Of a DNA stretch of 15,633 nt, positions 1-13,562 are shown one piece after another (within the stretch, counting starts at the first letter, position 1; every line of letters begins with the position of its first letter). This stretch comes from a virus. Position numbers and translations under genes: made by a program. Below the pieces are notes generated by a model, which did not search any database, was not told where the DNA came from, and was given only the letters and a program-made list of their open reading frames with translations. Location: UHGV virus genome UHGV-2095518, one strand, 5' to 3'.

Positions 1-211
1 CACCTCTCGCAGCCTTGCGCTTATCTTCTTTAATCTTGAAATAAAGGTTTGTCAGGTACGTCAGCAGGCCAAATACCAGACTACCCAGCACACCGATTGC
101 AGCCCACTGTGACGGAGTTACTCTATCGAGCAACTGTAAAAACCAGTAGCCAGCACTGCCTGCGGAGGTGCCGTAGGCAATGCCTGTTGAAATTTTGTCC
201 ATGGATTTCAT
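1..211 (-). CDS. S: Class II holin (pinholin), phage 21 S-type; partial, last codon(s) and stop lie beyond the window start
   Basis: Hand translation of the minus strand from ATG at 209-211 gives [70 protein letters not shown], which matches my recollection of the phage 21 S holin. It has the Met1-Lys-Ser-Met4 dual-start arrangement and a GGAGGTGAGG Shine-Dalgarno just upstream. It is not in the ORF track because no stop falls inside the window. Confidence 0.75.
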
Positions 212-462
212 AGCCTCACCTCCGCACGGAACGGATGGCATAGTTATTATGTGTAGGCTTTCAGACACATCAATCAGAGCCTTAATTGATATATATGCTG
301 GAGACGATGCAATATAAAAAGCTCGCCGTAGCGAGCTAATATAATGTATTTCTCTGATATTATGTTTATTTGTATTAGCTCAGACTTGACATCACAGGTT
401 TCGTATATAGAACATCATCAAATCTGTCAGTTTGCTATGAATGAGATATAGTAATTGAAGAG

Positions 463-858
463 CTAACCTCGCATGTCAAAGCCAGATTTCTGAAAATCTC
501 TGTAGACTTCCGGATTGTTGAAGGCCGGAAATTTGGCTTTATGAGCTGCGGACTTTATCGCTTCGCAATAGGCTTTATCACCGTTACTGGTAGATATTTT
601 TAACGCCGTGCCATCCTGAGAGAATTCCATATGCAACCTGCATTTTTTCCCTTTCCAGTTATGCGGCTCATCAAGTTTGGCATTAATTGCAGCTCTGATT
701 CCCCGCGCTTGCGCCCCCCATTCATCCTGATCATCCCAGCGTCCTGAACTGCAACTACCTGTAGCAGTAGTTTTGTGGCAATCTGAAGGGTGTAAAGGTG
801 TGCATCCCGCAACAAAACCGACCCAAAAAGTCAACATAACGATTTTCTTTAATCCCAC
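463..858 (-). CDS. Lipoprotein with a divergent TolA domain III-like mature domain
   Basis: 131-aa ORF with a GTG start preceded by GAGGA. Signal peptide with lipobox VAGC (MGLKKIVMLTFWVGFVAGC). The mature part (IRAAINAKL...GKKCRLHMEFSQDGTALKISTSNGDKAYCEAIKSAAHKAKFPAF..PEVYRDFQ) follows the pattern of the E. coli TolA C-terminal domain, including the conserved Cys pair. Paralogous to the 1009..1437 gene. Confidence 0.6.
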   Translation of the reverse strand: MGLKKIVMLTFWVGFVAGCTPLHPSDCHKTTATGSCSSGRWDDQDEWGAQARGIRAAINAKLDEPHNWKGKKCRLHMEFSQDGTALKISTSNGDKAYCEAIKSAAHKAKFPAFNNPEVYRDFQKSGFDMRG

Positions 859-1008
859 TTCTTGCTCCTCAATCCATTAAAATCTCAGCAATAGTAGTTG
901 TTACGTCCGCCACTGGCTCAGAGCTGACTATCCGCTAAATTTAGCTCAGTGCCGTAGCTGTGTCAGAACAAACCTAAGCCGAAACCGTTTATTACAAAAC
1001 AATAAATA

Positions 1009-1437
1009 TCAGGGTTTAAAATCCAGCACCCCATTTTGAAATACTTTATATACTTCCGGCGAAGGGGGGGCAGGTATATCAGCATTCTTTATCGCATTCA
1101 TCGCTTCACGACATAAATCGAGGTCTCCACTTTCTCTTTTAACCTCCAGTAGAAGGCCATTCGGGGCCATATGCATTCTCAGTGTACACTCTTTTCCTGA
1201 ATACTTACTCGCATCCCCGAACTGTTTTTCGATGGCGCTCTTGATTTGATGGGCATACAGACGGATATCCTCACTAACATCAGAAGTACGTTCAGATGAA
1301 CTCACATACTGTGTCTCTATTGCTTTATCGGAGTAATATGATGTACGGTCATGATAATTTGTCGATACAGCATCAGTGCACCCGATAATAATCCCACTAA
1401 TAATCAACGTAAGAATTGATGCGCTACGAAAACCCAT
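1009..1437 (-). CDS. Lipoprotein carrying a TolA domain III-like C-terminal domain
   Basis: 142-aa ORF with ATG start and GAGGAAAA Shine-Dalgarno. Signal peptide with lipobox-like IIGC. The C-terminal ~85 aa (HQIKSAIEKQFGDASKYSGKECTLRMHMAPNGLLLEVKRESGDLDLCREAMNAIKNADIPAPPSPEVYKVFQNGVLDFKP) closely parallel the TolA C-terminus as I remember it (..GQIKSAIESKFYDASSYAGKTCTLRIKLAPDGMLLDIKPEGGDPALCQAALAAAKLAKIPKPPSQAVYEVFKNAPLDFKP). Confidence 0.7.
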   Translation of the reverse strand: MGFRSASILTLIISGIIIGCTDAVSTNYHDRTSYYSDKAIETQYVSSSERTSDVSEDIRLYAHQIKSAIEKQFGDASKYSGKECTLRMHMAPNGLLLEVKRESGDLDLCREAMNAIKNADIPAPPSPEVYKVFQNGVLDFKP

Positions 1438-1466
1438 TTTTCCTCACATATGTCATATAGTAAAGG

Positions 1467-1496
1467 ATTATATATACCGTTGTTTTGGACGCTCAA
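1467..1496 (-). promoter_or_regulatory. Candidate sigma70 promoter for the 1009..1437 lipoprotein gene
   Basis: On the minus strand TTGAGC (-35) is followed after ~16-18 nt by TATATAAT (-10), about 30-40 nt upstream of the start codon in an AT-rich intergenic region. Confidence 0.3.
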
Positions 1497-2025
1497 ACAG
1501 CGAATCAGATCAAATAAAACGCACATTTGTTAACATTTACACAAAGTCTGCGTGGGATATTCTGAAAGAATATCCATAATGTGGAGAGAATCTATTGAAG
1601 TGCATGGTGCCGGGTGCCTCCCGGTGAACAAAATGTTCGTGATACCTGTCGGCGACAGAAAAGGTTAATGGTATCACCCCACCGCACAGGGGGATTCACC
1701 ATGCAGGAGTTTTCTTAGCAAACTCACTGCGCGCCCGGCAACTCCCAACCACATAAAATGCGGAGTTTGTGGTATTTATGCATATAACTCGCAGGAATTA
1801 TCTTAAAAAACTGATGTCGATCCGGATTAAAAAGAAGCAGGTCATCATCAGATGACTGGAAAAAAGGAAAACAAAAAATACTCATCATACAGTTTTGATT
1901 GCAGGGATGAGCCTGCTATGCACAATATGCAGAATATAAGCAAGATAAAAATATGCAGGCATATTATTTCGGGTTTTGTTATTAACACAACCTTTTTAAT
2001 AATCATTTGGCATACAATAAACCAG

Positions 2026-2055
2026 CCCAAAAAGAACCGCCTAAACAGGCGGTTG
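2026..2055 (-). terminator. Rho-independent terminator-like hairpin
   Basis: Stem AACCGCC / GGCGGTT with a 6-nt loop; on the minus strand it is followed by CTTTTTGGG. Confidence 0.35.
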
Positions 2056-2371
2056 GTCAATACAAAGGATGCTTCGTCTTTATTATAGTAATCTGAGGCG
2101 TCGGGTGTCTTGTATCAGACAACATATTGTCCCGCTAAACAGCGAATTACAAACCACCCTGCAATGATCTCTCATCTCATTTTATATGAGTTGACGACAT
2201 CAGGATAACGCATCATCAGCCCCTGCCAAGAAATATCAAAACTCCCGCCAGCAATGTGTTATCACAATATTGTAAAAAAAACACAGCACCGAAACTATAA
2301 CTGGTCTCTGTTATAATTTGGAGCAGAAAGACCAGTTGCCCAACTAGCAGCATTCTCCCCTGCTTTCCTGA

Positions 2372-2400
2372 CGTAAAAAAACCGCATTAAGCGGTTTTTT
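2372..2400. terminator. Bidirectional rho-independent terminator (tR'-like) just downstream of the Q-like gene
   Basis: AAAAAAACCGC-ATTAA-GCGGTTTTTTT: a GC stem flanked by an A-run on one side and a T-run on the other, about 90 bp past the stop of the 2482..3024 gene. Confidence 0.6.
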
Positions 2401-2481
2401 TACGATGTCCATGTCTGCAATCCGCCTCGCGATACAGCTTTGCGAAGCATAGCAAAATTGAAGCAGTTTATACGTAAGAAA

Positions 2482-3024
2482 TCAAGCCATTTTCTCAGCA
2501 AATGATTCACGCATGGGAATATATAGGGCATACTCAGCAACAGCTAACCAATTAGCAATCCGTTTTTCGCATGTGCTAAAACACCACTCTGGGTGTGCAT
2601 CATTTAGCAATTCAGCCATTTTGCGCTTAGTCATCCCCCGCCCTTCATAGCGTTGCCGGAGAATGCAAATCAATCCTGGATGCTCTGCCAGCACCTCACT
2701 TATGACTCGATCAATACATAACGCCTCTGCATCAGTACAATGCGCCAGCCAGCTCTTTTGCTTGCCGTTGATCATCTCTCGCAAAAACGCTTCCAGCTCA
2801 GCTTTCTCTATTCCCGCTTTTTTCATTCTGCGCAGGGCTTCATTAATGGCTGTTTTCGTCAGTTTTTTGGATGCCAACAACTGATTGAACATATTCCCTG
2901 ACCTGCCACCGCCAATATACGACCAGCGCCCCCACATACGTAGTTTTCCCTGAATCCAGACACTTTCCAGCGTGGTGAGGCGAAGGTGTTCTCCGCTTTT
3001 TCCTGTATTCGTTGGGTAAATCAT
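2482..3024 (-). CDS. Putative late-gene antiterminator (Q-like)
   Basis: 180-aa ORF whose start overlaps the upstream gene stop by 4 nt. The N-terminal LRMWGRWSY motif resembles the RWGAW motif of small Q antiterminators such as DLP12 QuuD. It sits directly upstream of a strong terminator and, further on, a holin. Confidence 0.5.
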   Translation of the reverse strand: MIYPTNTGKSGEHLRLTTLESVWIQGKLRMWGRWSYIGGGRSGNMFNQLLASKKLTKTAINEALRRMKKAGIEKAELEAFLREMINGKQKSWLAHCTDAEALCIDRVISEVLAEHPGLICILRQRYEGRGMTKRKMAELLNDAHPEWCFSTCEKRIANWLAVAEYALYIPMRESFAEKMA

Positions 3025-3311
3025 AAATGACCTTTCTTTCTCCAGATTTCTTGTGTGCGAAAAACCCCTTCAGCATGCATCAGGCGCAATTCTTCTTTGG
3101 TGTAATCGCTGGTTTTTACCCGCCCGTCGATTAGATCGTGGCATGAGCTACAGGCTATCGCCGCCTGCATATCGTGTGGTTTTGTCGCTGTTCCGCACGT
3201 CCCCGCCAGCCTGTAATGCGCCAGCACAGAGGTTTCGGGATTGTGATTGCAGTAGCCAGGGATTCTGATCTGGCACATCTGGCCTTTAGCCGCTTTACGT
3301 AAATTCACCAT
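3021..3311 (-). CDS. YbcO-like (DUF1364) Cys-rich putative nuclease
   Basis: 96-aa protein MVNLRKAAKGQMCQIRIPGYCNHNPETSVLAHYRLAGTCGTATKPHDMQAAIACSSCHD... matches my recollection of E. coli DLP12 YbcO in length, Cys spacing and several motifs (LRKAA, CQ.RIPG.CN.NPETSVLAH.RL.G.CGT.TKP, IACS.CHD). Translationally coupled to both neighbours. Confidence 0.6.
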   Translation of the reverse strand: MVNLRKAAKGQMCQIRIPGYCNHNPETSVLAHYRLAGTCGTATKPHDMQAAIACSSCHDLIDGRVKTSDYTKEELRLMHAEGVFRTQEIWRKKGHL

Positions 3312-3910
3312 TACGCAAACTCCAGTAGTTGTGCGGCCACATTTTCAACTTCCTCCTGAGAGGAGAATTTACGGAACAGAATCCAGTTCCACAGCACATT
3401 CAGTACAGATTTATAAACCTGCTGAAACTCGACTTCGTCCATATTCGCAAAAGCGATGGATTTTGCCCGACGCCCACGGCTACCGTCCGGATAAATATGC
3501 TCGGTGTAAAATCCGGCCTGAATGGTTACCCACTCGCGGAAAGCCTCAAACGACTTTAGCAACGCCGTATCCCGGGTTCTACGAGTCGCAACGGTGTTAA
3601 GGTATTGCTCTGCGGCATCACTCAGGGCTGGCGTGTGTTCCCGACCAACTGATTCGCACAGGTAATCAACGAAACCAGACAGCAGTTCTCGTTCGCGAGG
3701 CGTGATCGCCCCACCGACCGGAGTCCAGTAATCGAATCCCAGTTGCAGGAGTTTGAAAAAACGCTTGTGGAATGCGTAGTTACGCACACGCTTAAAGTCT
3801 GCGTGTATCCACTCACCTATTTTGATTTGATGCAGAAAATCGCAACTCTCCGGCGTCGCCGGGAGAAGTAAACCAGAAGAAGTTTGTTTGACCAGTTGTA
3901 TATGCGCCAT
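3311..3910 (-). CDS. Lambdoid nin-region protein (DUF1367-like), function unknown
   Basis: 199-aa ORF lying immediately upstream of the YbcO-like and Q-like genes, overlapping the YbcO-like start by 1 nt. The call rests on position and size; the family assignment is from memory. Confidence 0.45.
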   Translation of the reverse strand: MAHIQLVKQTSSGLLLPATPESCDFLHQIKIGEWIHADFKRVRNYAFHKRFFKLLQLGFDYWTPVGGAITPRERELLSGFVDYLCESVGREHTPALSDAAEQYLNTVATRRTRDTALLKSFEAFREWVTIQAGFYTEHIYPDGSRGRRAKSIAFANMDEVEFQQVYKSVLNVLWNWILFRKFSSQEEVENVAAQLLEFA

Positions 3911-4361
3911 TTCTCAATCTCTCGATGGCGCAGTGCAGCAGATGCCAGTTGTTCAGGCTGACGTATAAAGTATAAATAAACTGGTTCCAGTGTAAAGCCC
4001 CCACCTTAATGGAATAAAAACCAAACAACAGATTGCTGGGATACAAACAACGCTTATTATTAAAAGCGGTTAAACAAATTAAATTTTAATGTTATGCAAA
4101 TTTGTCAGATCACCATAATATCTCATTTGAAAACCGCTGAAATAACAGCCCTATCAGGGTTAATCATATTAAGGTGAGTAAATATGGAAAACAACAAATC
4201 TGTACATTACGTTCCTTTTTTATCTGTAATACTTTTTGTTTTATGCTGTGCGTGGGCATTATTTTTATAAAAATATTTACAGATGAAGTAAACCCGCCAA
4301 TCAGGTTAACTGTGGCTGCGTTGAGGATGCATAATACATCAGAGGTTGCGGGGATTTCTCC

Positions 4362-5701
4362 CATAAGCGCTAACTTAAGGGTTGTGGTATTACGCCTGAT
4401 ATGATTTAACGTGCCGATGAATTACTCTCACGATAACTGGTCAGCAATTCTGGCCCATATTGGTAAGCCCGAAGAACTGGATACTTCGGCACGTAATGCC
4501 GGGGCTCTAACCCGCCGCCGCGAAATTCGTGATGCTGCAACTCTGCTACGTCTGGGGCTGGCTTACGGCCCCGGGGGGATGTCATTACGTGAAGTCACTG
4601 CATGGGCTCAGCTCCATGACGTTGCAACATTATCTGACGTGGCTCTCCTGAAGCGGCTGCGGAATGCCGCCGACTGGTTTGGCATACTTGCCGCACAAAC
4701 ACTTGCTGTACGCGCCGCAGTTACGGGTTGTACAAGCGGAAAGAGATTGCGTCTTGTCGATGGAACAGCAATCAGTGCGCCCGGGGGCGGCAGCGCTGAA
4801 TGGCGACTACATATGGGATATGATCCTCATACCTGTCAGTTCACTGATTTTGAGCTAACCGACAGCAGAGACGCTGAACGGCTGGACCGATTTGCGCAAA
4901 CGGCAGACGAGATACGCATTGCTGACCGGGGATTCGGTTCGCGTCCCGAATGTATCCGCTCACTTGCTTTTGGAGAAGCTGATTATATCGTCCGGGTTCA
5001 CTGGCGAGGATTGCGCTGGTTAACTGCAGAAGGAATGCGCTTTGACATGATGGGTTTTCTGCGCGGGCTGGATTGCGGTAAGAACGGTGAAACCACTGTA
5101 ATGATAGGCAATTCAGGTAATAAAAAAGCCGGAGCTCCCTTTCCGGCACGTCTCATTGCCGTATCACTTCCTCCCGAAAAAGCATTAATCAGTAAAACCC
5201 GACTGCTCAGCGAGAATCGTCGAAAAGGACGAGTAGTTCAGGCGGAAACGCTGGAAGCAGCGGGCCATGTGCTATTGCTAACATCATTACCGGAAGATGA
5301 ATATTCAGCAGAGCAAGTGGCTGATTGTTACCGTCTGCGATGGCAAATTGAACTGGCTTTTAAGCGGCTCAAAAGTTTGCTGCACCTGGATGCTTTGCGT
5401 GCAAAGGAACCTGAACTCGCGAAAGCGTGGATATTTGCTAATCTACTCGCCGCATTTTTAATTGACGACATAATCCAGCCATCGCTGGATTTCCCCCCCA
5501 GAAGTGCCGGATCCGAAAAGAAGAACTAACTCGTTGTGGAGAATAACAAAAATGGTCATCTGGAGCTTACAGGTGGCCATTCGTGGGACAGTATCCCTGA
5601 CAGCCTACAAAACGCAATTGAAGAACGCGAGGCATCGTCTTAACGAGGCACCGAGGCGTCGCATTCTTCAGATGGTTCAACCCTTAAGTTAGCGCTTATG
5701 G
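4362..5701 (+). mobile_element. IS186-like insertion sequence (IS4 family)
   Basis: Terminal inverted repeats CATAAGCGCTAACTTAAGGGTTG at 4362-4384 and its reverse complement ending at 5701 enclose a single transposase gene. The flanking 12 bp are also inverted-symmetric (GGGGATTTCTCC on the left, GGAGAGATCCCC on the right), so the exact ends are uncertain by about 12 bp. Confidence 0.8.
4417..5529 (+). CDS. insL: IS186 transposase
   Basis: The ORF translates MNYSHDNWSAILAHIGKPEELDTSARNAGALTRRREIRDAATLLRLGLAY..., recognised as the IS186 transposase. The ORF track opens at a GTG at 4411; the ATG at 4417 is the more likely start. Confidence 0.85.
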   Translation: MNYSHDNWSAILAHIGKPEELDTSARNAGALTRRREIRDAATLLRLGLAYGPGGMSLREVTAWAQLHDVATLSDVALLKRLRNAADWFGILAAQTLAVRAAVTGCTSGKRLRLVDGTAISAPGGGSAEWRLHMGYDPHTCQFTDFELTDSRDAERLDRFAQTADEIRIADRGFGSRPECIRSLAFGEADYIVRVHWRGLRWLTAEGMRFDMMGFLRGLDCGKNGETTVMIGNSGNKKAGAPFPARLIAVSLPPEKALISKTRLLSENRRKGRVVQAETLEAAGHVLLLTSLPEDEYSAEQVADCYRLRWQIELAFKRLKSLLHLDALRAKEPELAKAWIFANLLAAFLIDDIIQPSLDFPPRSAGSEKKN

Positions 5702-5758
5702 GAGAGATCCCCGCCACTCTTCGTGTGTCAGGTATCCTCAATGCACCCTTTCCTCTCC

Positions 5759-5784
5759 AAATAAAAAAGCTCCCGAAGGAGCTT
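5759..5784 (-). terminator. Rho-independent terminator ending the virion-gene operon
   Basis: AGCTCC-CGAA-GGAGCT hairpin; on the minus strand it is followed by TTTTTTATTTGG, about 20 bp past the stop of the 5805..6314 gene. Confidence 0.55.
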
Positions 5785-5804
5785 TAAAATACAAGGGATG
5801 ACTC

Positions 5805-6314
5805 TTAATCCCAATCAATCCAGTTGTAGACGATACGAAGTGACGGGCGCACAGCAGCAGTCACATCTTCGGTACTAAAGTCGATTGCATCACTGTAGAT
5901 TTTGCAGTCCAACATTTCAATTGTTGTAGCAGCTTTTGTCACAGCGTTAACCCCGGAAGATTTGGATTCAGGGGTAGCAGCCATCGTGATATCAACATAG
6001 TCTTTCTCTGCAATGCGATCCTTAATGAACTGAAGAATATCGCCTTCGATAGTCTCCACGCACTGGACCTGGATTTCCCCAGAGTTTCGAATTGGACCGT
6101 GCTGGTTGAACTTCACACCATTCGGACCATAGTCCTCCACATCCTCGCGGGTCATTTCAGGAATTTGCGATGTGCGAACCGGTACGCTGATATCTTCATG
6201 GCCTGCAAAAGTGAGCTGGAATTCAGAAGATACCAGTCGTTCGCCTTTGGCCGCGTTGGCAGTATAGCGGCCCTTAATAAATTTACGGTTTCCCTTAGTG
6301 TTATTGTGCCCCAT
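5805..6314 (-). CDS. Hypothetical virion protein, last gene of the structural operon (possible tail tube or tail-associated)
   Basis: 169-aa ORF with an AAAAGGA Shine-Dalgarno, 11 bp after the upstream gene, in an operon with a sheath-like gene. No family recognised by eye. Confidence 0.4.
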   Translation of the reverse strand: MGHNNTKGNRKFIKGRYTANAAKGERLVSSEFQLTFAGHEDISVPVRTSQIPEMTREDVEDYGPNGVKFNQHGPIRNSGEIQVQCVETIEGDILQFIKDRIAEKDYVDITMAATPESKSSGVNAVTKAATTIEMLDCKIYSDAIDFSTEDVTAAVRPSLRIVYNWIDWD

Positions 6315-6325
6315 ATAAAATCCTT

Positions 6326-6907
6326 TTACTGGAACGCCCGAACAATATCGGAGCTGTTATATATCGAAGAACCGGTCAACTGGAGGTTGACGGTGTTTTT
6401 CAGGAAATGCCCATTACTATCCCTGGGGGCATCGAGATCGAAACTAAGGTCCTGGATAGCGACATCAATGATGTTGATCCGGCGACCAATGTTTAGCGTC
6501 ACACGCTCCGGGATTCGACCACCAATACTAGCGTCTTTAAGTTCCGGGCTAATCATTGCTGACAACGCGGCGATAGCACCTGAAACTTCCGTATATGGGT
6601 TAAACAAAGCAATGAAAGTTACTGGCAGCGTGAAAGTCGGCGGTGTCCCCCCTTCCCAAACCATTAAGCTGTTCCAACGGGCAACTGACGTTGTTTCAGT
6701 ACCAACCTGCGCAAAACCACTGAAGGCACCAGCAACAGAACCCATAGACATACCGGTAAACGGCGCTTCCCAATTCTGGGCCAGATTCATTGCCGCCCCC
6801 TGGCTGATATATCCGGTAACCTGGTACTGAGAGTTCGTTAAAGTAACTTTCAGAAATGGCGATACACCGTCAGCCTGGCTGTAAACCCCAAAAGGTATAG
6901 GTGCCAT
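6326..6907 (-). CDS. Hypothetical virion protein (size fits a tail tube protein)
   Basis: 193-aa ORF in the same operon, Gly/Ser/Thr-rich. The function is inferred only from context. Confidence 0.4.
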   Translation of the reverse strand: MAPIPFGVYSQADGVSPFLKVTLTNSQYQVTGYISQGAAMNLAQNWEAPFTGMSMGSVAGAFSGFAQVGTETTSVARWNSLMVWEGGTPPTFTLPVTFIALFNPYTEVSGAIAALSAMISPELKDASIGGRIPERVTLNIGRRINIIDVAIQDLSFDLDAPRDSNGHFLKNTVNLQLTGSSIYNSSDIVRAFQ

Positions 6908-6942
6908 TCAAGTTAAAGGCCGGAGTTCTCCGGCATCCTCCT

Positions 6943-7758
6943 TTAGCCGAGGCGCTTACGGCGCAGTTTCATTGACTTTTTGCGGGCCAGTTTTGCCGCG
7001 CCGGTCTGGGCTTTACGACGCGCTTTTTTCAGCGCCGATTTTTGAGCCGCAGTCAGACGTTTTTTACGCAGACGTTTACGGATGAGCTTGATCTCACCGT
7101 TACGAACAACCTTCTTAAATGCTTCAGTCAGCATTTCATCAGAAGTGCCAGCAACAACAAACGCCGCTTCCAGTTCGTCGCGGTCGTCGCTATCCAAACC
7201 AGCGATAGCGGAACCAACATCAGCAGCTGCGTCGTCGTCTTCATCGTCGGTCAATGCTTCGATCAGGTCATCATCTACACCGCATGCTGCGAGGAAGTCA
7301 GCAACATTTGCCCATGCTTCGTTATAGGCATCGTCCTGTTCTTCTGTAACTTCGGTATCGTCGTCGTCAGAGATACCAGCGATAGCCTGAACGAAACCAT
7401 CAAGGGAGTCGAAAGTCAGATCACCGCTATCAGCCCAGGCGAAAACGGCATCGGCCGCATTACTCAACGCATTCTGCATAGCACTTCGATTTGCAGCTTC
7501 CAGAATCATCTTGTGCGCCTGTTCGACGGTCCATTCTTTACCTTCTTTTCCTTCCAGGATTTGCTCAGGTGCCGGGTCAGATTGAACGTTCTCGTTAATC
7601 TGTGCCGCCGGTTCCGGATTATTATTAATCACCGGTTCGGTTGGCGGTTGGGCACTTACACGGGCAGATTCCATCAACTGCACCGGATCAGCGTTCAAAG
7701 CGAAACGGGACAGTCCATTCCCCAAAAATGCCCCGGATTGAAAAAAGTTTTTGCTCAT
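6943..7758 (-). CDS. Acidic protein with a poly-basic C-terminal tail, function unknown
   Basis: 271-aa ORF with an AAGGGA Shine-Dalgarno, starting 10 bp after the sheath-like gene. The centre is extremely D/E-rich (..SDDDDTEVTEEQDD.., ..TDDEDDDAAAD.., ..DSDDRDELE..) and the last ~50 aa are K/R-rich (KLIRKRLRKKRLTAAQKSALKKARRKAQTGAAKLARKKSMKLRRKRLG). Confidence 0.5.
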   Translation of the reverse strand: MSKNFFQSGAFLGNGLSRFALNADPVQLMESARVSAQPPTEPVINNNPEPAAQINENVQSDPAPEQILEGKEGKEWTVEQAHKMILEAANRSAMQNALSNAADAVFAWADSGDLTFDSLDGFVQAIAGISDDDDTEVTEEQDDAYNEAWANVADFLAACGVDDDLIEALTDDEDDDAAADVGSAIAGLDSDDRDELEAAFVVAGTSDEMLTEAFKKVVRNGEIKLIRKRLRKKRLTAAQKSALKKARRKAQTGAAKLARKKSMKLRRKRLG

Positions 7759-7767
7759 TGTATTCCC

Positions 7768-9357
7768 TTACTTAATAAGCAGCGGTACGCCATGGATACG
7801 ACGGGCTACGCCAGTCGGGCAGCAGGCCCAGACTACTTCCCATTTATCGAATTCCGCCTGCGTAACTTTCAGCACATACGGTTCTGTACCGTCAGCATCA
7901 GGATCACGAGGAGCCACCAGAGCGCCGGAGGCGACAAAGCGATCTAAAAGTTTGGTCATCCCTTTAGTCAGGCCAGCCGCAGTAATACCGTCCGGGCTAT
8001 GCTTCATCTGTCGGGCTAACTGGACAAAGAAACGGCTGATTGCATTCATCAGGGATGGGACGTGCTGGAAGTGCAGATAGTTATCCTGCGTGCAGCAAGT
8101 TAAAGCATCGTCGATGATCATCTGGCCAGAGGTGCCAACAGATACTTTATTGAGACGGCCCTTGACCATTGCTTCTTCGTCCGGGGTATCTTCCGGATAC
8201 AGCGGTTGAATTGACGCACGAGCAATGACGGCACGTTCTTCACCAGCCGGTGAGTAATGCCAACCGCCGACATCAGAGTTTTTCTTGACGCCACGAGCTT
8301 TCGCCGCATACGCCGCGCCAGACAGACCGAAGACCACACGGGATTGGGTCCATTTGTCTTTGCAGGAGAACGGGAAGTGATAGACAGCACAGCTTACATA
8401 ATCGGTACCAAGTAAACCGGTATCTTCAACAGCAGAGATCGCTTCCGTGTACGTCAATGTCGGTTTGACATCAAAGAAGCCATCAATCAGGCGATCTGCA
8501 CAGATTTTACCTAATGCGGTGATAGCCGCATTGTCATAGCAGCCCAAGCCAAGAACAGCGGTGTACATGTACGGCGCATTGTTCAGCACTTTCACCGCAC
8601 GCAGGTACGCAGCGGTTGAGATTTTCGACTGATCACCGTTGGTACCACCAGTGAACGCCAACGATTTTTTGTTTGTTACTTTCGCTGTAGAAATCAGATC
8701 TTCATTAACAACCGCGCGCAGATATTTAGAACGGGCTTCCAGAGCCGTAGGCAGATAACACAAGCGGCCCATGTCATCTTTCGCTTCTTCCACCAAAGAC
8801 ACAGTGTGTGTCTCCAGGGTCGTTACCACACCGAGCGAAGTCGTCTGGGTTAGTTTTAAGAGGAAGCGTTCATTACCCGCGCTGTCCGCTGTTGCCGTTT
8901 CGATGGTTAACTCACGGGTAGGTGAAATACACGGATCACCATCATCAACGTAGATAGCAAAGGCTTCGCCGCTATCAAGTTCAATTTCAGAACCATATGG
9001 CAACGCAGTGTAAGCCGGTTCGCCTGATTCATCGAACATAATAATCGGGAACTTCGCATCATCCGGAACAGCACGGACAACATAACCAGACGTTTGCTGA
9101 ATAGCTTCGTACACATGGCGAATTGGTTCGAACTGTGAGCCGGAAGACGGCTTCAGCGGTTCGCCGAGAACATCTTCGTAATTGGACTCAGTAACCGCAA
9201 GAACAGTAAACGGCTTGCCACGCGCAAATACGCCAATACCAGCCCACAAGCTGCTATTTAATGCAACACCGGTAGATAACGTCGCATCGGCATTGATCGG
9301 GCTAACCGCGACGCCGGATGCATTACCTAATGACTGTTGAATTGAATATTGAGACAT
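7768..9357 (-). CDS. Contractile-tail sheath protein (putative)
   Basis: 529-aa ORF with an AGGGAAAG Shine-Dalgarno. It contains a GGWHYSPAGEERA segment resembling the W.SPAG..RG motif I recall from T4 gp18 and P2 FI, and has a sheath-like C-terminal region; the size and operon context also fit. Confidence 0.55.
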   Translation of the reverse strand: MSQYSIQQSLGNASGVAVSPINADATLSTGVALNSSLWAGIGVFARGKPFTVLAVTESNYEDVLGEPLKPSSGSQFEPIRHVYEAIQQTSGYVVRAVPDDAKFPIIMFDESGEPAYTALPYGSEIELDSGEAFAIYVDDGDPCISPTRELTIETATADSAGNERFLLKLTQTTSLGVVTTLETHTVSLVEEAKDDMGRLCYLPTALEARSKYLRAVVNEDLISTAKVTNKKSLAFTGGTNGDQSKISTAAYLRAVKVLNNAPYMYTAVLGLGCYDNAAITALGKICADRLIDGFFDVKPTLTYTEAISAVEDTGLLGTDYVSCAVYHFPFSCKDKWTQSRVVFGLSGAAYAAKARGVKKNSDVGGWHYSPAGEERAVIARASIQPLYPEDTPDEEAMVKGRLNKVSVGTSGQMIIDDALTCCTQDNYLHFQHVPSLMNAISRFFVQLARQMKHSPDGITAAGLTKGMTKLLDRFVASGALVAPRDPDADGTEPYVLKVTQAEFDKWEVVWACCPTGVARRIHGVPLLIK

Positions 9358-9417
9358 AACTTTCCCTGTTATGCGCCCCGCACGGGGGCGCTATGTTAAA
9401 CGGAGAACTTCCCCTGA

Positions 9418-10125
9418 TTACTCAGAGTCACCGGCATCAATCGTGTCGCCGCTTATAAAGTTAAGCCCGCCTTTTTTGGCCATTGTCAGCGTTACACGAG
9501 TGAAGTAATCAGCGCCGTTGCGTGGGTGCATATCGTTGATAGCCGAACCCCACAGTGTGGTACGGTTGACCAGCGCCGGAGTGGTCGGATGCTGGAACGG
9601 GATAGCCGGGACAGCATCACCAGTCACGAAGCCTGCTTTACCCGGATTTTCATCACGGACGTAGCACAGCACATCCATCGAGCTGAACTGAATGTTCTCT
9701 GTCGTTAAGTTCTTACAAATACCAGCAGGTACTTCGTACACTTTTACGTTACCGAACAGGGTACCGATGTAGTGAACATACGGAGTCTGGATATAGTCTT
9801 CGGCTGGCTGGAAGAAATCCTTCGGCAACTGTTTGAAGAAAGATGCTGCATCAGCACCAGCAAACATCCCCATCGCACCAGAAGATTTAACGCGCTCAAT
9901 AATGTCGCGATATACAGTCTGGAATTTTCCACGAATGATGGTTGCCCATACATCAAAGGACTGGTTAACCGGCAGAGCGATGTCAAAGGTGTCGGTCGCA
10001 AGAGTGCGCCAGATCATGATGCGAAGACGCAGCATATCCTGTTCATGAGACAGGTATTCCTTCAGGGTGCGGAACTGTAGGGAACCCAGGTCCAGACCAA
10101 ATTCACGCTGTGCTTCATACGCCGC
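9418..10125 (-). CDS. C-terminal part of a capsid-like ORF, in frame with and immediately downstream of the TAG at 10126-10128
   Basis: The reading frame stays open from the TAG through AAYEAQREFGLDLGSLQFRTLKEYLSHEQDMLRLR... to the stop at 9418. The first ATG (10033-10035) has no convincing Shine-Dalgarno, so this looks like a continuation of the upstream frame rather than an independent gene. Confidence 0.45.
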   Translation of the reverse strand, partial: AAYEAQREFGLDLGSLQFRTLKEYLSHEQDMLRLRIMIWRTLATDTFDIALPVNQSFDVWATIIRGKFQTVYRDIIERVKSSGAMGMFAGADAASFFKQLPKDFFQPAEDYIQTPYVHYIGTLFGNVKVYEVPAGICKNLTTENIQFSSMDVLCYVRDENPGKAGFVTGDAVPAIPFQHPTTPALVNRTTLWGSAINDMHPRNGADYFTRVTLTMAKKGGLNFISGDTIDAGDSE

Positions 10126-11124
10126 CTATACCGTGTGCTCAGCCGCGATAACGAACTGACTTGGGAACAGGGTGTATTTCTTCATTTCGTGGTTGATCAG
10201 CGGGATCAGCTCAGGAGCGGCTTCAATATTGATTTCCGTCTCAATTGCGATCTCAGTGCCTTTATCCGGCGCTTTGGAGAACGACAGGGCAATCTGACCA
10301 ATGTTGTAGTTCAGAGAGCAGGTAACAGTGATTTGCTCACCAGCAGCATTAGTAAACGAGTGAAGTAGGCTGCCGGAACCGTTATCAACAACAGACTTAA
10401 TACGGTTAACGTAGATGTTAGTGCGACCTTTTCGGATTGGTACATTCTGGCCTTCGAAGTCTTCCATCTTGAAGGTTGCGGTTTTGCTGGTGCCATCGGA
10501 GCTTGCCACCAGCACATAGCGGCGGCGTAACTGGCTGTACACACCGACGGATTGCATGTCCAGAACATCACCAGCAGCATAAGAACCAAAAGAGGAACCT
10601 GCCACGTTAAAGACTTCATAGATGTCGGACTGGTCACGCGTAACCGGAATGAAGGTACACGCATCAGCGGTAGCTGCCCCCAACTGAACAGGCAGGATCA
10701 TCGCGAGGAATAAAGGCAGACGCATAACACCGTCAGAAACGCTCATCATCTCTGCTGCGACGGATTCCAGCATCGCTTTATTAGTGGCATCCATGCTATT
10801 GCGGGTGGACTCAATCAGGCAGTTTTCCAGCGTCTGGTGGCAGGAGGCCAGAATTTCCGGACGCGGCATAGATTTATGTGCTGCGGCGTAGTCAGCCAGT
10901 GCACTTGCCCACGCGGTAGCAATTTGAGCGGTGGCATTATCAGAGATACCCGCAAAAATTGGGTCTTTACGTGCAGCTTCAAGGATAGATGCGGCACGCG
11001 CGGCATCATCTTTGATGAATTGGTTATCAGTACCGAACTGTGCTGTACTTGCCCAGCCAAGAACGGCTTTAGAGCGTTTTGCGATATCTGCAATACGATT
11101 CTGGTATTCGCGTAAGTTACTCAA
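10126..11124 (-). CDS. N-terminal part of a putative major capsid protein precursor (about 568 aa if the TAG at 10126-10128 is read through)
   Basis: Probable TTG start at 11122-11124, 6 nt after AAGGAAG; the ORF track opens at an upstream TTG at 11145. The frame ends in TAG after ...AAEHTV. It is the first gene of the virion operon, immediately downstream of parB/parS, which is where I recall P1 placing its major head gene; the combined size of about 62 kDa also fits. Confidence 0.45.
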   Translation of the reverse strand: MSNLREYQNRIADIAKRSKAVLGWASTAQFGTDNQFIKDDAARAASILEAARKDPIFAGISDNATAQIATAWASALADYAAAHKSMPRPEILASCHQTLENCLIESTRNSMDATNKAMLESVAAEMMSVSDGVMRLPLFLAMILPVQLGAATADACTFIPVTRDQSDIYEVFNVAGSSFGSYAAGDVLDMQSVGVYSQLRRRYVLVASSDGTSKTATFKMEDFEGQNVPIRKGRTNIYVNRIKSVVDNGSGSLLHSFTNAAGEQITVTCSLNYNIGQIALSFSKAPDKGTEIAIETEINIEAAPELIPLINHEMKKYTLFPSQFVIAAEHTV

Positions 11125-11388: not shown

Positions 11389-12354
11389 TTATTCCCCAGC
11401 AGACATTTTCCCAATGATTTTTTTTATTGCTTCGTCAATTTCAGTTTGCACTTCAGACGGGAGTCTGGAGAACTCGTAGGCGACAACCCGTTTTTTCGGA
11501 TCGGACTTCTTTCGAGCATATTGGCGACGGTCAGAGAAGTCTCGCAGCTTCTCAACCACCACAGATTTAACCGGCGCGGGCTTCAGGCTTTTGCTTTCCG
11601 CTTTGAAGATAGCCAGTATCTTCGCTTTATCCTCTTTCGCGCCCTCAGTCTCTGCAATTCGCTCGCGCACCGTATCAACCAGATCTCCAATCGGTACGTT
11701 TTTGGCGTTAGCATCTTCGGAGATCTGGAGCAGCAACTGGTAATCAGGCAGGGCGAGATCGCTGGCAACAGGGAAGACAGCAATCATCTCATCCGGCACC
11801 GCCGCAGCCTGGAAAGCTCGCGTCACTTTAGCCTTTGAGATGTTCTCAGCTCGGGCGATCTCTTCTTTGGTCATATTCTTGCCGTACATAACCTCGAAGC
11901 GTTTACCCAGCTCGCGCAGAGTGTGTTCGCGGGCTGTCTGGATATCAATGGCCAGCTGGCGGGCATCCGCCAGGCTGATCTCATCTTTCGTCACCAGAAT
12001 CTCAAATTTCGTTTCATTGAAGATACACGCAGCGCGGCGACGTGATCCGTCCAATACCTCAATGCGCTCCCCAACCATACGACCGATAGCCGGGAAGAAC
12101 TGTTGCAATTTAATGGTGCGGGAAATATCGCTTACCGACTCAGGGGTGAGCAGAGACTGATCGCGGCCGTTAACTGCCGGGTCAACGAACGTGCGCGACT
12201 CAATCTCACCACTCAGCACAACGGTAAGCAAAAATTTAGCCTGGCGACCAGATTTTAGGGTAAAGGTTTTGGTGCCTTCACTGCCTTCAAGCATGCGAGC
12301 AAACTCGGAGCTATTCTTGCCCAGCACTCGTCCACGGGAAACTATTTTTTTCAT
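11389..12354 (-). CDS. parB: ParB centromere-binding partition protein (type Ia)
   Basis: 321-aa ORF with the ParB GSRRRAA motif (LDGSRRRAACIF) and an HTH region, translationally coupled to parA (4-nt overlap). The overall pattern is P1/P7 ParB-like but clearly divergent from the P1 ParB I recall. Confidence 0.85.
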   Translation of the reverse strand: MKKIVSRGRVLGKNSSEFARMLEGSEGTKTFTLKSGRQAKFLLTVVLSGEIESRTFVDPAVNGRDQSLLTPESVSDISRTIKLQQFFPAIGRMVGERIEVLDGSRRRAACIFNETKFEILVTKDEISLADARQLAIDIQTAREHTLRELGKRFEVMYGKNMTKEEIARAENISKAKVTRAFQAAAVPDEMIAVFPVASDLALPDYQLLLQISEDANAKNVPIGDLVDTVRERIAETEGAKEDKAKILAIFKAESKSLKPAPVKSVVVEKLRDFSDRRQYARKKSDPKKRVVAYEFSRLPSEVQTEIDEAIKKIIGKMSAGE

Positions 12355-13562
12355 GCCGCCTCACCCCTAACAAACTCAATTCGATCAAACACAGCCTTAG
12401 TGAAACGCTCGGCCTCGGTTCGTGCCTTCTTCAGCGCCTCTGCACTGCCTGGATACGATTGCGGGTTGGCACTGATTACGGTGTCGAAAGACTCGCCGCA
12501 TCGCTCAAAGCCATCCAGACGAGGCAGAGAAGAGTCCAGAATGTTGCTGGCGTAAACCTCACGCGCAAGGCTGTGTGATGTCTCGTGATCGCGCTTGCCG
12601 GTCATCTTCGACATAAAACCAATGCTGGCGCTCAAACGCGGTTCTACGCCTTCCTCCTCCAGTTGCTCCAGCATTTCTGGCAGACGGGTGAGATATTTCA
12701 GTGTTGAGTGGAAGTCAACCTGGGCTGGTGGGGTAGGGGTAAGCAGCAAATCGCTGGCCGCCAGACCGTTGAGCAGGAACGGATCCAGGTGTGGACCGGT
12801 ATCAATAAAGATAAAGTCATAATCATCCGCAACACGATCAATGATATTGCGTCGAAGGATTTCGTACTGATTTTGTCCGGGAAGATGCTCTTCAACCAGC
12901 TCTTTCCATTGGCTGGCAACAAAGCCATCGTCGATAGAGGCTGGAATCACGTCTACGCCAGGAACGATGGTCGGACGAATCACCTCTTTGCGTAGCGTCT
13001 CCGCGTCCAGGTCGTTCAGCATCGCCTGCGCGGCGGTTTCCAGGATGGAACCAATACTGTGAGTATGGTCGAGGAACATTGTGCTGGATGCCTGAGGGTC
13101 AAGGTCAATTACCAGAATGCGCAGATCGTGACGCAGTAAATCCTGATGCACACGCAGAGCGTGCGCCAACGTTACTGTGGAAACCGTTTTGGATACGCCA
13201 CCCTTCAGGTTTACGACAAAAATAACGTAAGGCGATTTGTGAATGTCGCGATATTTGGGGATCTTACGGTGGGCATAGATATCAATGACGTTCTGGATGG
13301 TCAGCGCGTACTGTTCAACGTTACCGACCTGTTTCTTGTTGAACTGGTACCCATCATCTTCCATCTCTTTGATGGCCTGCTCCACAATGCGGCGGCTCAG
13401 CTTCGGCAACTTTGCCACAGCGTTACGAGTGAACGTCTGATAATACTCGGTCTGATTGAACTCTTTACGCTGATCTTCAATATCCTGACTCATGGCCTTA
13501 AGTAATGCGCTTGCACGAAGAGCTATGGTGCCGACACCGCCGTAATCGCGTTTCATCATCAT
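12351..13562 (-). CDS. parA: ParA partition ATPase (type Ia, with N-terminal DNA-binding extension)
   Basis: 403-aa ORF with the deviant Walker A motif NLKGGVSKTVSTV and a conserved C-terminal region (RLDGFERCGESFDTVISANP..AVFDRIEF) as in P1 ParA. The ~100-aa N-terminal extension is typical of autoregulatory type Ia ParA. Confidence 0.9.
   Translation of the reverse strand: MMMKRDYGGVGTIALRASALLKAMSQDIEDQRKEFNQTEYYQTFTRNAVAKLPKLSRRIVEQAIKEMEDDGYQFNKKQVGNVEQYALTIQNVIDIYAHRKIPKYRDIHKSPYVIFVVNLKGGVSKTVSTVTLAHALRVHQDLLRHDLRILVIDLDPQASSTMFLDHTHSIGSILETAAQAMLNDLDAETLRKEVIRPTIVPGVDVIPASIDDGFVASQWKELVEEHLPGQNQYEILRRNIIDRVADDYDFIFIDTGPHLDPFLLNGLAASDLLLTPTPPAQVDFHSTLKYLTRLPEMLEQLEEEGVEPRLSASIGFMSKMTGKRDHETSHSLAREVYASNILDSSLPRLDGFERCGESFDTVISANPQSYPGSAEALKKARTEAERFTKAVFDRIEFVRGEAA

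What the first reader, a model, noticed from the sequence alone, without database searches (positions are those of the whole stretch)
6943..7758. Extremely acidic protein with a 50-residue poly-basic tail inside the virion operon
The product has D/E-rich repeats through its middle and a K/R-rich C-terminus, giving a strongly bipolar charge distribution. Sitting between the sheath-like gene and two small structural genes, it could be a scaffold or assembly chaperone, an injected nucleic-acid-binding protein, or a DNA mimic with a targeting tail (anti-restriction or anti-defence). None of these can be decided from sequence alone.
Basis: seen in the sequence. Interest (0 to 1): 0.45.

Follow-up and report, generated by a model that had tools for sequence, protein, structure and literature searches.

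The report
P1 gene 21: likely head-core protein
The acidic protein with a basic tail is phage P1 gene 21, long labelled a tail part, but its sequence suggests a capsid-interior assembly protein cut up by the head-maturation protease, a component recent P1 papers say had not been identified.

Summary
ORF 6943-7758 (minus strand, 271 aa) has an acidic body (residues 111-213, net -33) and a basic tail (214-271, net +25). It is gene 21 of a P1-type phage-plasmid, 96% identical to P1 gp21, which is annotated 'baseplate or tail tube'. Published P1 virion proteomics and whole-virion cryo-EM do not report gp21. Its predicted structure is helical or disordered, with no tube fold. The basic tail is a discrete module, more conserved than any 55-residue stretch of the capsid, sheath or tube proteins. 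It aligns with the C-terminus of T4 gp68, a prohead-core protein (profile-profile probability 54-91%, above all permuted controls). gp21 also carries the short motif at which P1's maturation protease cuts the capsid protein (AMLE|S) and apparently DarA (LLE|A). Among 21 P1 proteins this motif is concentrated in known substrates, the protease itself and gp21. One site lies just before the basic module in 28 of 29 relatives. Best reading (about 0.5): a gp68-like prohead-core precursor, cleaved to release a 59-residue, +25 peptide that trypsin-based proteomics would miss. Main rival: a non-virion tail assembly chaperone, supported by constant adjacency to the sheath gene. No experiment yet decides.

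The parts
6943..7758 (-). Gene 21 coding sequence (271 aa plus stop); P1 gp21 ortholog, 259/271 residues identical, C-terminal 60 residues identical
   Evidence: PHROG 1053 'unknown function', E=4e-98
7764..7769 (-). Shine-Dalgarno-like AAGGGA for gene 21. It overlaps the stop codon of sheath gene 22 (TAA at 7768-7770), so the two genes are tightly packed.
   Evidence: read directly from the sequence
7528..7758 (-). Residues 1-77: variable, Pro/Ala-rich, predicted disordered N-terminal region carrying protease-type motifs
   Evidence: AF2 pLDDT 38-45; variable in alignment A1; motif enrichment 163 observed against 12.5 +/- 3.2 in shuffles
7666..7677 (-). Candidate protease site 1, L-M-E30|S31
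   Evidence: site-like in 19/29 aligned relatives
7549..7560 (-). Candidate protease site 2, I-L-E69|G70 (lineage-specific)
   Evidence: site-like in 2/29
7495..7506 (-). Candidate protease site 3, I-L-E87|A88, at the start of the first long helix
   Evidence: site-like in 20/29
7144..7527 (-). Residues 78-205: acidic all-helical domain with no detectable structural relative
7255..7266 (-). Candidate protease site 4, L-I-E167|A168 (lineage-specific)
   Evidence: site-like in 6/29
7120..7131 (-). Candidate protease site 5, L-T-E212|A213, immediately before the basic module. The Glu is near-invariant in the family. T4 gp68 has L-N-E67|F at the equivalent position.
   Evidence: E212 conserved in at least 90% of A1; site-like in 28/29; fixed distance to the QKxALKKA motif in 111/182 members; gp68 alignment
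6946..7122 (-). Residues 213-271: basic module (predicted beta-hairpin VVRNGEIKL plus two helices). Predicted mature peptide of 59 aa, net +25, 6.84 kDa. It aligns with the C-terminus of T4 prohead-core protein gp68.
7768..9357 (-). Gene 22, tail sheath. It lies immediately upstream of gene 21 in every locus where the upstream gene was identified.
   Evidence: phrog_1036 E=3e-230; synteny
6326..6907 (-). pmgG, the tube-linking (T4 gp48-like) baseplate protein; downstream of gene 21 in the same transcription direction
   Evidence: literature read
5805..6314 (-). bplB, the actual tail tube protein of P1; downstream of gene 21
   Evidence: literature read
9418..11124 (-). Gene 23, major capsid protein, at the head of the same gene block. 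In P1 its maturation cut AMLE120|S defines the protease motif. In this window it is interrupted by an in-frame TAG at 10126-10128.
   Evidence: Gonzales 2022 (PMC9024508)

Best explanation
Gene 21 encodes a prohead-core (capsid-interior, scaffold-type) protein precursor related to T4 gp68. It is probably not a baseplate or tail-tube component. Proposed mechanism, all steps inferred: (1) gp21 is made late from the capsid-sheath operon and is built into the interior of the assembling procapsid. (2) The acidic helical domain provides bulk in the core and neutralises the strongly basic C-terminal module, so that module does not bind host nucleic acid. (3) The conserved basic hairpin-helix-helix module binds an acidic partner, either the inner capsid surface (as the basic C-terminal helix-turn-helix of P22 scaffolding protein is understood to, from my own knowledge) or later the packaged DNA. 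(4) After shell completion the P1 maturation protease Pro cuts gp21 after Glu in hydrophobic-hydrophobic-Glu|small-residue motifs: E30, E87 and E212, plus lineage-specific E69 and E167. This is the site type it uses on the capsid protein and apparently on DarA. (5) The acidic fragments leave to make room for DNA. The 59-residue, +25 peptide A213-G271 either leaves or stays bound to DNA. By analogy with T4 gp67 and gp68, the protein may influence head size (P1 makes both normal and small heads). What is shown: the sequence anatomy, the motif statistics, the similarity to gp68, and the gene contexts. What is inferred: incorporation into the procapsid, the cleavage itself, and the fate of the fragments.
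For: 1) Similarity to T4 gp68. The profile of divergent family members against the gp68 family gives hhalign probability 90-91%, E about 1e-6, and covers the whole basic module to the C-terminal Gly-Leu/Met. The P1-proximal profile gives 37-54%. Both exceed all column-permuted controls (0/130 and 0/100), and reversed controls collapse. Composition-adjusted BLASTP aligns gp21 158-249 with gp68 22-104 at E=0.005, extending into the acidic part. gp68 has the same layout: an acidic N-terminal half, an invariant L-x-E, a hairpin, then a basic C-terminus. 2) T4 gp68 is a prohead-core protein (~240 copies) degraded by the T4 protease, which cuts after L/I-X-E (PMC9958956 and PMC9026906). 3) P1 protease motif. 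The mapped capsid-protein cut E120|S121 reads AMLE|S and is conserved in relatives. DarA is modelled from residue 70, and LLE68|A69 lies at that boundary. 4) Motif distribution. Among 21 P1 proteins the motif occurs 4 times in gp21 (expected 0.32, p about 4e-4), 7 times in Pro, 3 times in the removed capsid propeptide, and never in mature capsid protein, sheath, tube, DarB (2,255 aa) or ten others. The other proteins pooled have 3 against 9.3 expected. 5) The site before the basic module is site-like in 28/29 relatives. Extra copies are enriched in the disordered N-termini, 163 against 12.5. 6) The tail is the most conserved 55-residue stretch among the six structural proteins compared (59% against 37-51%). 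7) A member with two basic modules lies in a T4-type head and neck gene block (protease, Gp23-type capsid protein, gp13-like), six genes from the sheath. In Psychrobacter-type genomes the next gene is Hdf-like, and Hdf is a head-internal protein in P1. 8) gp21 is not among the 27 proteins in P1 virion LC-MS/MS, nor in the whole-virion cryo-EM protein list. The predicted mature peptide gives tryptic pieces of 7 residues or fewer. 9) Recent P1 papers state that no separate scaffold has been identified.
Against: The legacy annotation 'baseplate or tail tube', which as I recall derives from classical amber-mutant phenotypes, points to the tail. I could not read the original papers. In every locus where the upstream gene was identified, the gene sits directly after the sheath gene, and usually before the tube-initiator and tube genes. 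That fits a tail role more naturally. The gp68 similarity is moderate. The region is K/R-rich, and one permuted control scored 42.9 against the observed 47.1. gp21 does not reach threshold against the gp68 PHROG families, and my local Pfam copy lacks the gp68 model PF26830. P1 Pro shows no BLAST similarity to the T4 protease, so shared specificity rests on one mapped and one inferred P1 site. The motif is short, and I defined it after seeing the data. P1's capsid protein already has an N-terminal propeptide thought to act as scaffold, so a separate core protein is not required. There is no direct evidence of cleavage or of presence in proheads.
Confidence: 0.5

Rival explanations
1. gp21 is a non-virion tail assembly factor (chaperone). 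It would act electrostatically on sheath, tube or tape-measure protein. For example, the acidic domain could hold the basic tape measure Sit or the basic inner face of the sheath, and the basic tail could hold the acidic tube subunits. It would be released before the tail is complete.
For: The gene directly follows a P1-type sheath gene in every locus where the upstream gene was identified. In 14 of 17 diverse genomes it precedes pmgG, the tube gene, pmgC, tub and pmgB, with a recognisable tape-measure gene beyond in five. The legacy annotation is 'baseplate or tail tube', and gene 21 scores essential in CRISPRi. It is not reported in the virion. Sit is the one clearly basic tail protein (pI 9.1; residues 61-420 about +27), and the other tail proteins computed are acidic. 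The RBS overlaps the sheath stop codon.
Against: There is no similarity to lambda G/GT, and both lambda G and the T extension are acidic, so the charge layout differs. There is no similarity to T4 gp51, gp26 or gp28 and no chaperone-like fold match. This reading does not explain why the protein is studded with maturation-protease motifs that the tail proteins lack. It does not explain the gp68 similarity. It does not explain the double-module member sitting in a head and neck block away from the sheath. The CRISPRi result is polar on pmgG and bplB, and an amber mutation in gene 21 could be polar too. PmgB already occupies the chaperone position before the tape-measure gene.
Confidence: 0.25
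2. gp21 is a structural baseplate or tail-tube protein of the virion, as the database annotations say.
For: GenBank and RefSeq product names read 'baseplate or tail tube', 'tail tube protein Gp21' or 'tail protein'.
Against: It is not among the 27 proteins found by LC-MS/MS, although five of its tryptic peptides are 8-22 residues long and should be detectable. It is not in the whole-virion or tail-baseplate cryo-EM models, which assign the tube to BplB, the initiator to Tub and the linker to PmgG. No PDB chain matches it. The predicted structure is disordered and helical, not a tube beta-sandwich.
Confidence: 0.03
3. gp21 is an injected DNA-binding or anti-defence protein. The acidic domain would act as a DNA mimic against restriction or other defence systems, and the basic tail would target it to DNA or to the capsid.
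For: It has extreme acidity together with a basic, possibly nucleic-acid-binding module. P1 does package anti-restriction proteins. An Hdf-like gene follows it in some relatives.
Against: There is no fold or sequence match to known DNA mimics or to any solved structure. It was not detected in virions, whereas all six Dar proteins were. It occupies a fixed position in a morphogenesis block across distant hosts (Desulfobacteraceae to Phycisphaeraceae), unlike fast-turnover anti-defence cargo. The conserved part is the basic tail, not the acidic surface.
Confidence: 0.07
4. gp21 is the principal, essential capsid scaffolding protein of P1, of the P22 gp8 type. It would bind coat protein through its C-terminal basic helix-turn-helix and leave largely intact, with the protease motifs being incidental.
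For: It has an elongated helical acidic body plus a basic helix-turn-helix at the extreme C-terminus. It is in the same operon as the capsid gene. It is absent from virions. No separate P1 scaffold is known.
Against: The P1 capsid protein carries its own cleaved 120-residue propeptide with predicted coiled coil. The closest relative, T4 gp68, is an accessory, non-essential core protein that is degraded. The protease motifs are positionally conserved and statistically enriched.
Confidence: 0.1

Closest known systems
Bacteriophage T4 gp68 (17K prohead core protein; PF26830 as tagged; phrog_1049 'head scaffolding protein')
   Same: Both have an acidic N-terminal part, then an invariant L/M-x-E, then a short hairpin (V-x-x-R-G-E-I/V), then a very basic helical C-terminus ending in Gly-Leu. 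They align collinearly: gp21 158-271 with gp68 22-141. Both are encoded in late morphogenesis operons. gp68 is a core component degraded by a protease that cuts after L/I-X-E.
   Different: gp21 is twice as long. It has a roughly 130-residue acidic helical domain of unknown fold and a disordered N-terminal region carrying extra motif copies. gp68 has a 14-residue insertion in the basic part. The T4 gene lies between the portal and protease genes, whereas the P1-type gene lies between the sheath and tube-initiator genes. Sequence similarity is below family-assignment thresholds.
T4 gp67 and gp22 (prohead core or scaffold proteins, precursors of internal peptides)
   Same: They are highly acidic helical core proteins with multiple hydrophobic-hydrophobic-Glu|Ser/Ala/Gly motifs (IFE|S, VFE|A, LFE|S, LIE|G). 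They are degraded by the maturation protease.
   Different: There is no detectable sequence similarity between the gp21 acidic domain and gp22. gp22 and gp67 lack the basic C-terminal module.
P22 gp8-type scaffolding proteins
   Same: The design is the same: an extended helical protein whose extreme C-terminal basic helix-turn-helix binds the coat protein electrostatically, and which is absent from the mature virion. The P22 details are from my own knowledge.
   Different: P22 scaffold exits intact and is recycled, with no protease involved. No sequence or fold match was found.
Lambda gpG/gpGT and P2 gpE/E+E' tail assembly chaperones
   Same: They are acidic, abundant, non-virion products of tail gene clusters.
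   Different: The chaperones lie between the tube and tape-measure genes, are made with a programmed frameshift, and are acidic throughout (lambda G net -8, T extension net -16). gp21 lies after the sheath gene and has a +25 tail.

Membership tests
T4 gp68-type prohead core protein | Significant sequence similarity to the gp68 family | tested here: inconclusive
   hhalign probability is 90-91% (E about 1e-6) with the divergent-member profile and 37-54% with the P1-proximal profile. Scores exceed 130 and 100 permuted controls, but the null has a heavy tail. BLASTP E=0.005. No hit to phrog_1049, 14114 or 3503 at E<=0.01.
T4 gp68-type prohead core protein | Architecture: acidic N-terminal part, L/I-x-E site, hairpin, strongly basic C-terminus ending in Gly-Leu | tested here: met
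T4 gp68-type prohead core protein | Physically present in the prohead core and degraded by the maturation protease | not testable with these tools
   Only indirect evidence: motif enrichment and absence from mature virions in the literature.
T4 gp68-type prohead core protein | Gene located among head-assembly genes | tested here: inconclusive
   In the P1 lineage it is two genes downstream of the capsid gene but flanked by sheath and tube-initiator genes. The T4-like contig L107 places a family member between a gp13-like neck gene and further neck genes, next to the protease and capsid genes. In L099 and L103 it is followed by an Hdf-like gene.
Substrates of the P1 maturation protease Pro | Contains the hydrophobic-hydrophobic-Glu|Ser/Ala/Gly motif used in gp23 (mapped) and DarA (inferred) | tested here: met
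   Four strict sites plus L-T-E212|A; expected 0.32, p about 4e-4. The site before the basic module is conserved in 28/29.
Substrates of the P1 maturation protease Pro | Demonstrated cleavage in vivo or in vitro | not testable with these tools
   No data found in the searchable literature.
Tail assembly chaperone (lambda G/GT type) | Gene between the tube and tape-measure genes | tested here: not met
   It lies between the sheath and tube-initiator genes. PmgB occupies the position before the tape-measure gene.
Tail assembly chaperone (lambda G/GT type) | Acidic throughout; related fold or sequence | tested here: not met
   Lambda G net -8 and T extension net -16, against gp21's +25 tail. No Pfam, PHROG or fold match.
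Tail assembly chaperone (lambda G/GT type) | Programmed -1 frameshift producing two products | not tested
   No dedicated slippery-site or alternative-frame analysis was run.
Tail tube or baseplate structural protein (current annotation) | Tube-type beta-sandwich fold or a recognised baseplate domain | tested here: not met
   The AF2 model is disordered plus all-helical. No family hits.
Tail tube or baseplate structural protein (current annotation) | Present in purified virions or tails | tested here: not met
   From the literature only: absent from the LC-MS/MS list and from the cryo-EM models. No PDB chain matches.
DNA-mimic anti-restriction proteins (Ocr/ArdA type) | Structural similarity to a known DNA mimic | tested here: not met

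The most novel reading that the evidence does not exclude
Mature P1 heads, and those of hundreds of related phage-plasmids, may contain a so-far invisible protamine-like component. This would be the 59-residue, +25 peptide A213-G271, cut from gp21 by the maturation protease, which stays bound to the packaged DNA and may enter the cell with it. It would have escaped every study: trypsin reduces it to pieces of 7 residues or fewer, it would be hard to see on standard protein gels, and it would be disordered in symmetrised cryo-EM maps. The acidic body of the precursor would then be a built-in neutralising chaperone, much as adenovirus makes its DNA-condensing core peptides by protease processing of precursors (own knowledge).
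Probability: 0.15. Interest if true: 0.75.

Novelty: new variant of a known kind. Interest (0 to 1): 0.55.

Why it matters
P1 is a paradigm phage and a workhorse of E. coli genetics. P1-type phage-plasmids are widespread carriers of resistance genes. Gene 21 has carried a tail annotation since at least the 2004 genome record, and that label has spread to many genome records as 'tail tube protein'. Two recent structural and proteomic studies state that no separate scaffolding protein has been identified in P1. If gene 21 encodes a gp68-like core protein processed by Pro, this would correct the annotation and give P1 a separate capsid-interior assembly protein. It would offer a candidate determinant of P1's two head sizes, which matters for transduction and for phagemid delivery capacity. 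It would define the recognition motif of the P1 maturation protease. It would also link the P1 and T4 head-assembly systems. The family is large (about 600 clusters at 50% identity) and has no curated functional description, so one experiment would annotate many genomes.

Full report
WHAT THE WINDOW IS. The right two-thirds of the window is a P1-type phage-plasmid, 96-97.5% identical in DNA to P1 and P7 over 5700-9500. All the following genes are on the minus strand: repA (13956-14816), parA (12351-13562), parB (11389-12354), gene 23 for the major capsid protein (9418-11124), gene 22 for the sheath (7768-9357), the ORF in question (6943-7758), pmgG (6326-6907) and bplB (5805-6314). The ORF is P1 gene 21. 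259 of 271 residues are identical to P1 gp21, and the last 60 are all identical. GenBank annotates it 'baseplate or tail tube'.

The protein has 271 residues and pI 4.6. Residues 111-213 carry net charge -33 and residues 214-271 carry +25. None of 20,000 shuffles segregates charge as strongly. The acidic part is made of compositional D/E runs rather than repeats.

FAMILY AND ANATOMY. A word-index search found 79 relatives. An exhaustive profile search found 596 clusters (at 50% identity) with E<=1e-3, nearly all 200-260 residues long with the same layout. The bipolar charge is family-wide: median core -23, median tail +20, n=134. Alignment shows three parts.
- A variable, Pro/Ala-rich N-terminal region, predicted disordered.
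- An acidic helical domain, residues ~78-205, AF2 pLDDT 77-91.
- A basic module: a short hairpin (VVRNGEIKL) plus two helices, which holds nearly all the invariant columns.

The tail is not generic poly-basic sequence. Across 12 distant genomes its 55-residue window averages 59% identity. The best 55-residue windows of the other proteins reach 51% (sheath), 46% (tube), 44% (capsid), 42% (PmgG) and 37% (Tub). A composition-matched null averages 20% with a maximum of 31%. Three long members carry two copies of the module, so it behaves as a discrete unit.

IT IS PROBABLY NOT A STRUCTURAL TAIL PART. The P1 virion LC-MS/MS study lists 27 proteins, including the products of the neighbouring genes, but not gp21 (PMC9024508). 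The tail, tail-baseplate and whole-virion cryo-EM studies assign the tube to BplB, the initiator to Tub and the linker to PmgG. They list almost all proteins from head to tail without gp21. No PDB chain matches gp21.

The genetic evidence is weaker than it looks. Gene 21 scores essential in DNA-level CRISPRi, but that method is polar, and pmgG and bplB lie downstream (PMC10695390). Gene 21 was not in the 2022 knockout set. P1 was absent from the non-polar screens I could find. I could not read the classical papers. A 'baseplate or tail tube' phenotype is what loss of bplB or pmgG would give. So an amber mutation in gene 21 that is polar on them, or an allele mis-assigned to this ORF, would explain the old label. 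That is my inference, not a result.

GENE CONTEXT. In 14 of 17 diverse genomes, from Desulfobacteraceae to a Phycisphaeraceae MAG, and in the Mailhella and Vibrio contigs, the order is capsid, (small ORF), sheath, gp21-like, PmgG, tube, PmgC, Tub, PmgB. A Sit-like tape measure was recognised beyond PmgB in five of the 17. In two of the three exceptions (L099 and L103; the third, L101, was not examined upstream) the gp21-like gene still follows a P1-type sheath gene directly, and the next gene is Hdf-like. Hdf is a head-internal protein in P1. This constant sheath adjacency is the best argument for a tail role.

THE TURN IN THE ANALYSIS. One double-module member, P0206, lies in a T4-type head and neck block. 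The order there is Peptidase_S77 protease, Gp23-type capsid protein, a small ORF, a gp13-like neck protein, P0206, further neck genes, and only six genes later the sheath. In P0206 and throughout the family, the basic module is preceded by a short motif (MILE|S, AMLE|A, PILE|S; in gp21 EMLTE|A). I had already found that motif enriched in the disordered N-termini: 163 occurrences against 12.5 +/- 3.2 in shuffles.

The same motif is where P1's capsid protein is matured. The mapped cut E120|S121 reads AMLE|SVAA and is conserved in relatives. DarA, the other known substrate of the P1 protease Pro, is modelled from residue 70, and LLE68|A69 sits at that boundary. The T4 protease cuts after L/I-X-E, and T4 scaffold gp22 contains IFE|S, VFE|A and LFE|S.

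MOTIF STATISTICS. I counted hydrophobic-hydrophobic-Glu followed by Ser, Ala or Gly in 21 P1 proteins.
- gp21: 4 sites (expected 0.32 from its own composition; p about 4e-4), plus the L-T-E|A site.
- Pro itself: 7 sites (expected 0.57).
- Capsid protein: 3 sites, all in the removed propeptide or at its boundary, and none in the mature 448 residues.
- DarA: 1 site, at the boundary.
- Portal, Sit and DdrB: 1 each.
- Sheath, tube, PmgG, Tub, PmgA, PmgB, BplA, gp16, S, R, Hdf, Ulx, DdrA and the 2,255-residue DarB: none.
- Pooled proteins other than gp21, Pro, DarA and the capsid propeptide: 3 observed against 9.3 expected (p about 0.02 for depletion).

The site just before the basic module is site-like in 28 of 29 aligned relatives. 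Sites 1 and 3 are site-like in about two-thirds. One caveat applies: I defined the motif after seeing these sequences.

SIMILARITY TO T4 gp68. T4 gp68 is 141 residues long. It is a prohead-core protein of about 240 copies, degraded by the T4 protease, non-essential and thought to affect head size. It has the same layout in miniature: an acidic half, an invariant L-N-E, a hairpin (VS-RGEIT) and a basic C-terminus ending in GL.

Profile-profile comparison of divergent gp21-family members with a gp68-family alignment gives 90-91% probability and E about 1e-6, over the whole module. The P1-proximal profile gives 54%. Column-permuted controls never reached the observed scores: 47.1 against a null of 18.7 +/- 4.3 (0 of 130), and 31.6 against 15.9 +/- 3.2 (0 of 100). 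One control did reach 42.9, so the null is heavy-tailed. Composition-adjusted BLASTP aligns gp21 158-249 with gp68 22-104 at E=0.005, extending into the acidic part. I treat homology of the C-terminal ~115 residues as probable, not proven.

BEST EXPLANATION (about 0.5). gp21 is a gp68-like prohead-core precursor and a substrate of Pro. It would co-assemble inside the procapsid, then be cut at E30, E87 and E212 (and at E69 and E167 in this lineage). The acidic fragments would leave. The 59-residue peptide A213-G271 (+25, 6.84 kDa) would either leave or stay with the DNA. All tryptic pieces of that peptide are 7 residues or shorter, so the published proteomics could not easily have seen it. This reading accounts for the motif pattern, the gp68 similarity, the T4-type context, the absence of full-length protein from virions, and the unusual conservation of the tail. 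It also fits the statements that no separate P1 scaffold is known.

RIVALS.
- A non-virion tail chaperone (about 0.25). It is supported by gene position and the legacy phenotype, and by charge complementarity: the tape measure Sit is basic (pI 9.1) while the other tail proteins are acidic. It does not explain the protease motifs or the gp68 link. gp21 also does not resemble lambda G/GT, whose two parts are both acidic, or T4 gp51, gp26 and gp28.
- A principal P22-type scaffold (about 0.1).
- An injected DNA binder or DNA mimic (about 0.07).
- A structural tube or baseplate protein (about 0.03).

NOVELTY AND VERDICT. The gene itself is known. The proposed role is not in any paper I could search. 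It would be a new variant of a known kind, namely protease-processed prohead-core proteins. The variant has a new acidic domain, multiple propeptide-type sites and an unusual genomic position. The claim is computational and needs the experiments listed under next steps.

Noticed in passing
window 10126-10128 (minus strand), inside gene 23: The major capsid gene has an in-frame TAG where P1 has CAG (Gln in AAEHTV-Q-AAYEAQ, about residue 338 of 568). The rest of the protein is nearly identical to P1 gp23. This copy therefore cannot make full-length capsid protein without an amber suppressor. It is either a laboratory-type amber allele or a recently inactivated prophage.
   Followed up: partly
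window ~4360-5600 and 1-4360: An IS4-like element (annotated IS421 family in RefSeq; transposase ORF at 4411-5529, plus strand) abuts the end of bplB, where P1 has pmgF and rlfB. P1-type ~90-kb plasmids match at 99.9% from about 4360 rightward. No record in the phage, plasmid or E. coli collections spans into the DNA on the left. The junction may be an IS-mediated rearrangement or an assembly chimera.
   Followed up: partly
window 2482-3910 (minus strand): Three lambdoid nin-region genes that do not belong to P1: NinB/DUF1367 (3311-3910), a YbcO-type nuclease (3021-3311) and a Q-like antiterminator/DUF1133 (2482-3024).
   Followed up: no
window 463-858 and 1009-1437 (minus strand): Two paralogous ORFs whose N-termini look like lipoprotein signal peptides (by eye). 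Similar plasmid genes are annotated 'cell envelope integrity TolA C-terminal domain-containing protein'. They could be phage or plasmid exclusion factors acting on Tol-dependent entry.
   Followed up: no
P1 proteins Prt, Sit, DdrB and Pro (loci L109, L087): Outside gp21, the capsid propeptide and DarA, the protease-type motif occurs once in the portal, 12 residues from its C-terminus (ILE|SVF at 557). It occurs once near the N-terminus of tape measure Sit (IVE|A at 75) and once in DdrB (LFE|S at 439). It occurs seven times in the protease Pro itself. These may be further processing or self-degradation sites.
   Followed up: no
L107 5703-6941 (P0206); also P0183 and P0216: Some family members carry two copies of the basic module. 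P0206 also has an N-terminal Cys-x-Cys...Cys-x-x-Cys motif that looks like a zinc ribbon (by eye), and it sits in a T4-type head and neck gene block. In that phage the S77 protease is 589 residues long, suggesting a protease-scaffold fusion.
   Followed up: partly
L099 2218-2820 and L103 10645-11184: In the Psychrobacter-type genomes the gene after the gp21-like gene is Hdf-like (phrog_1620), and the gp21-like proteins have about 25 extra residues after the usual C-terminal Gly-Leu.
   Followed up: no
PHROG and GenBank labels for P1 proteins: Several automatic labels conflict with the structural papers. P1 Pro falls in phrog_1801 'tail fiber protein'. PmgG, PmgC and PmgB are labelled 'head morphogenesis' although the structural papers place PmgG in the baseplate and PmgC at the connector, and the 2022 study links PmgB to tail assembly. 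gp21 is labelled 'tail tube protein' in several records.
   Followed up: no
P1 Sit (L087 12989-16411): Sit has 1,140 residues including a transglycosylase domain. The tube is about 2,100 A long (53 rings of ~40 A). That is about 1.85 A per residue, higher than the 1.5 A per residue of an alpha-helix used in the 2022 paper. How Sit spans the tube is unclear.
   Followed up: no
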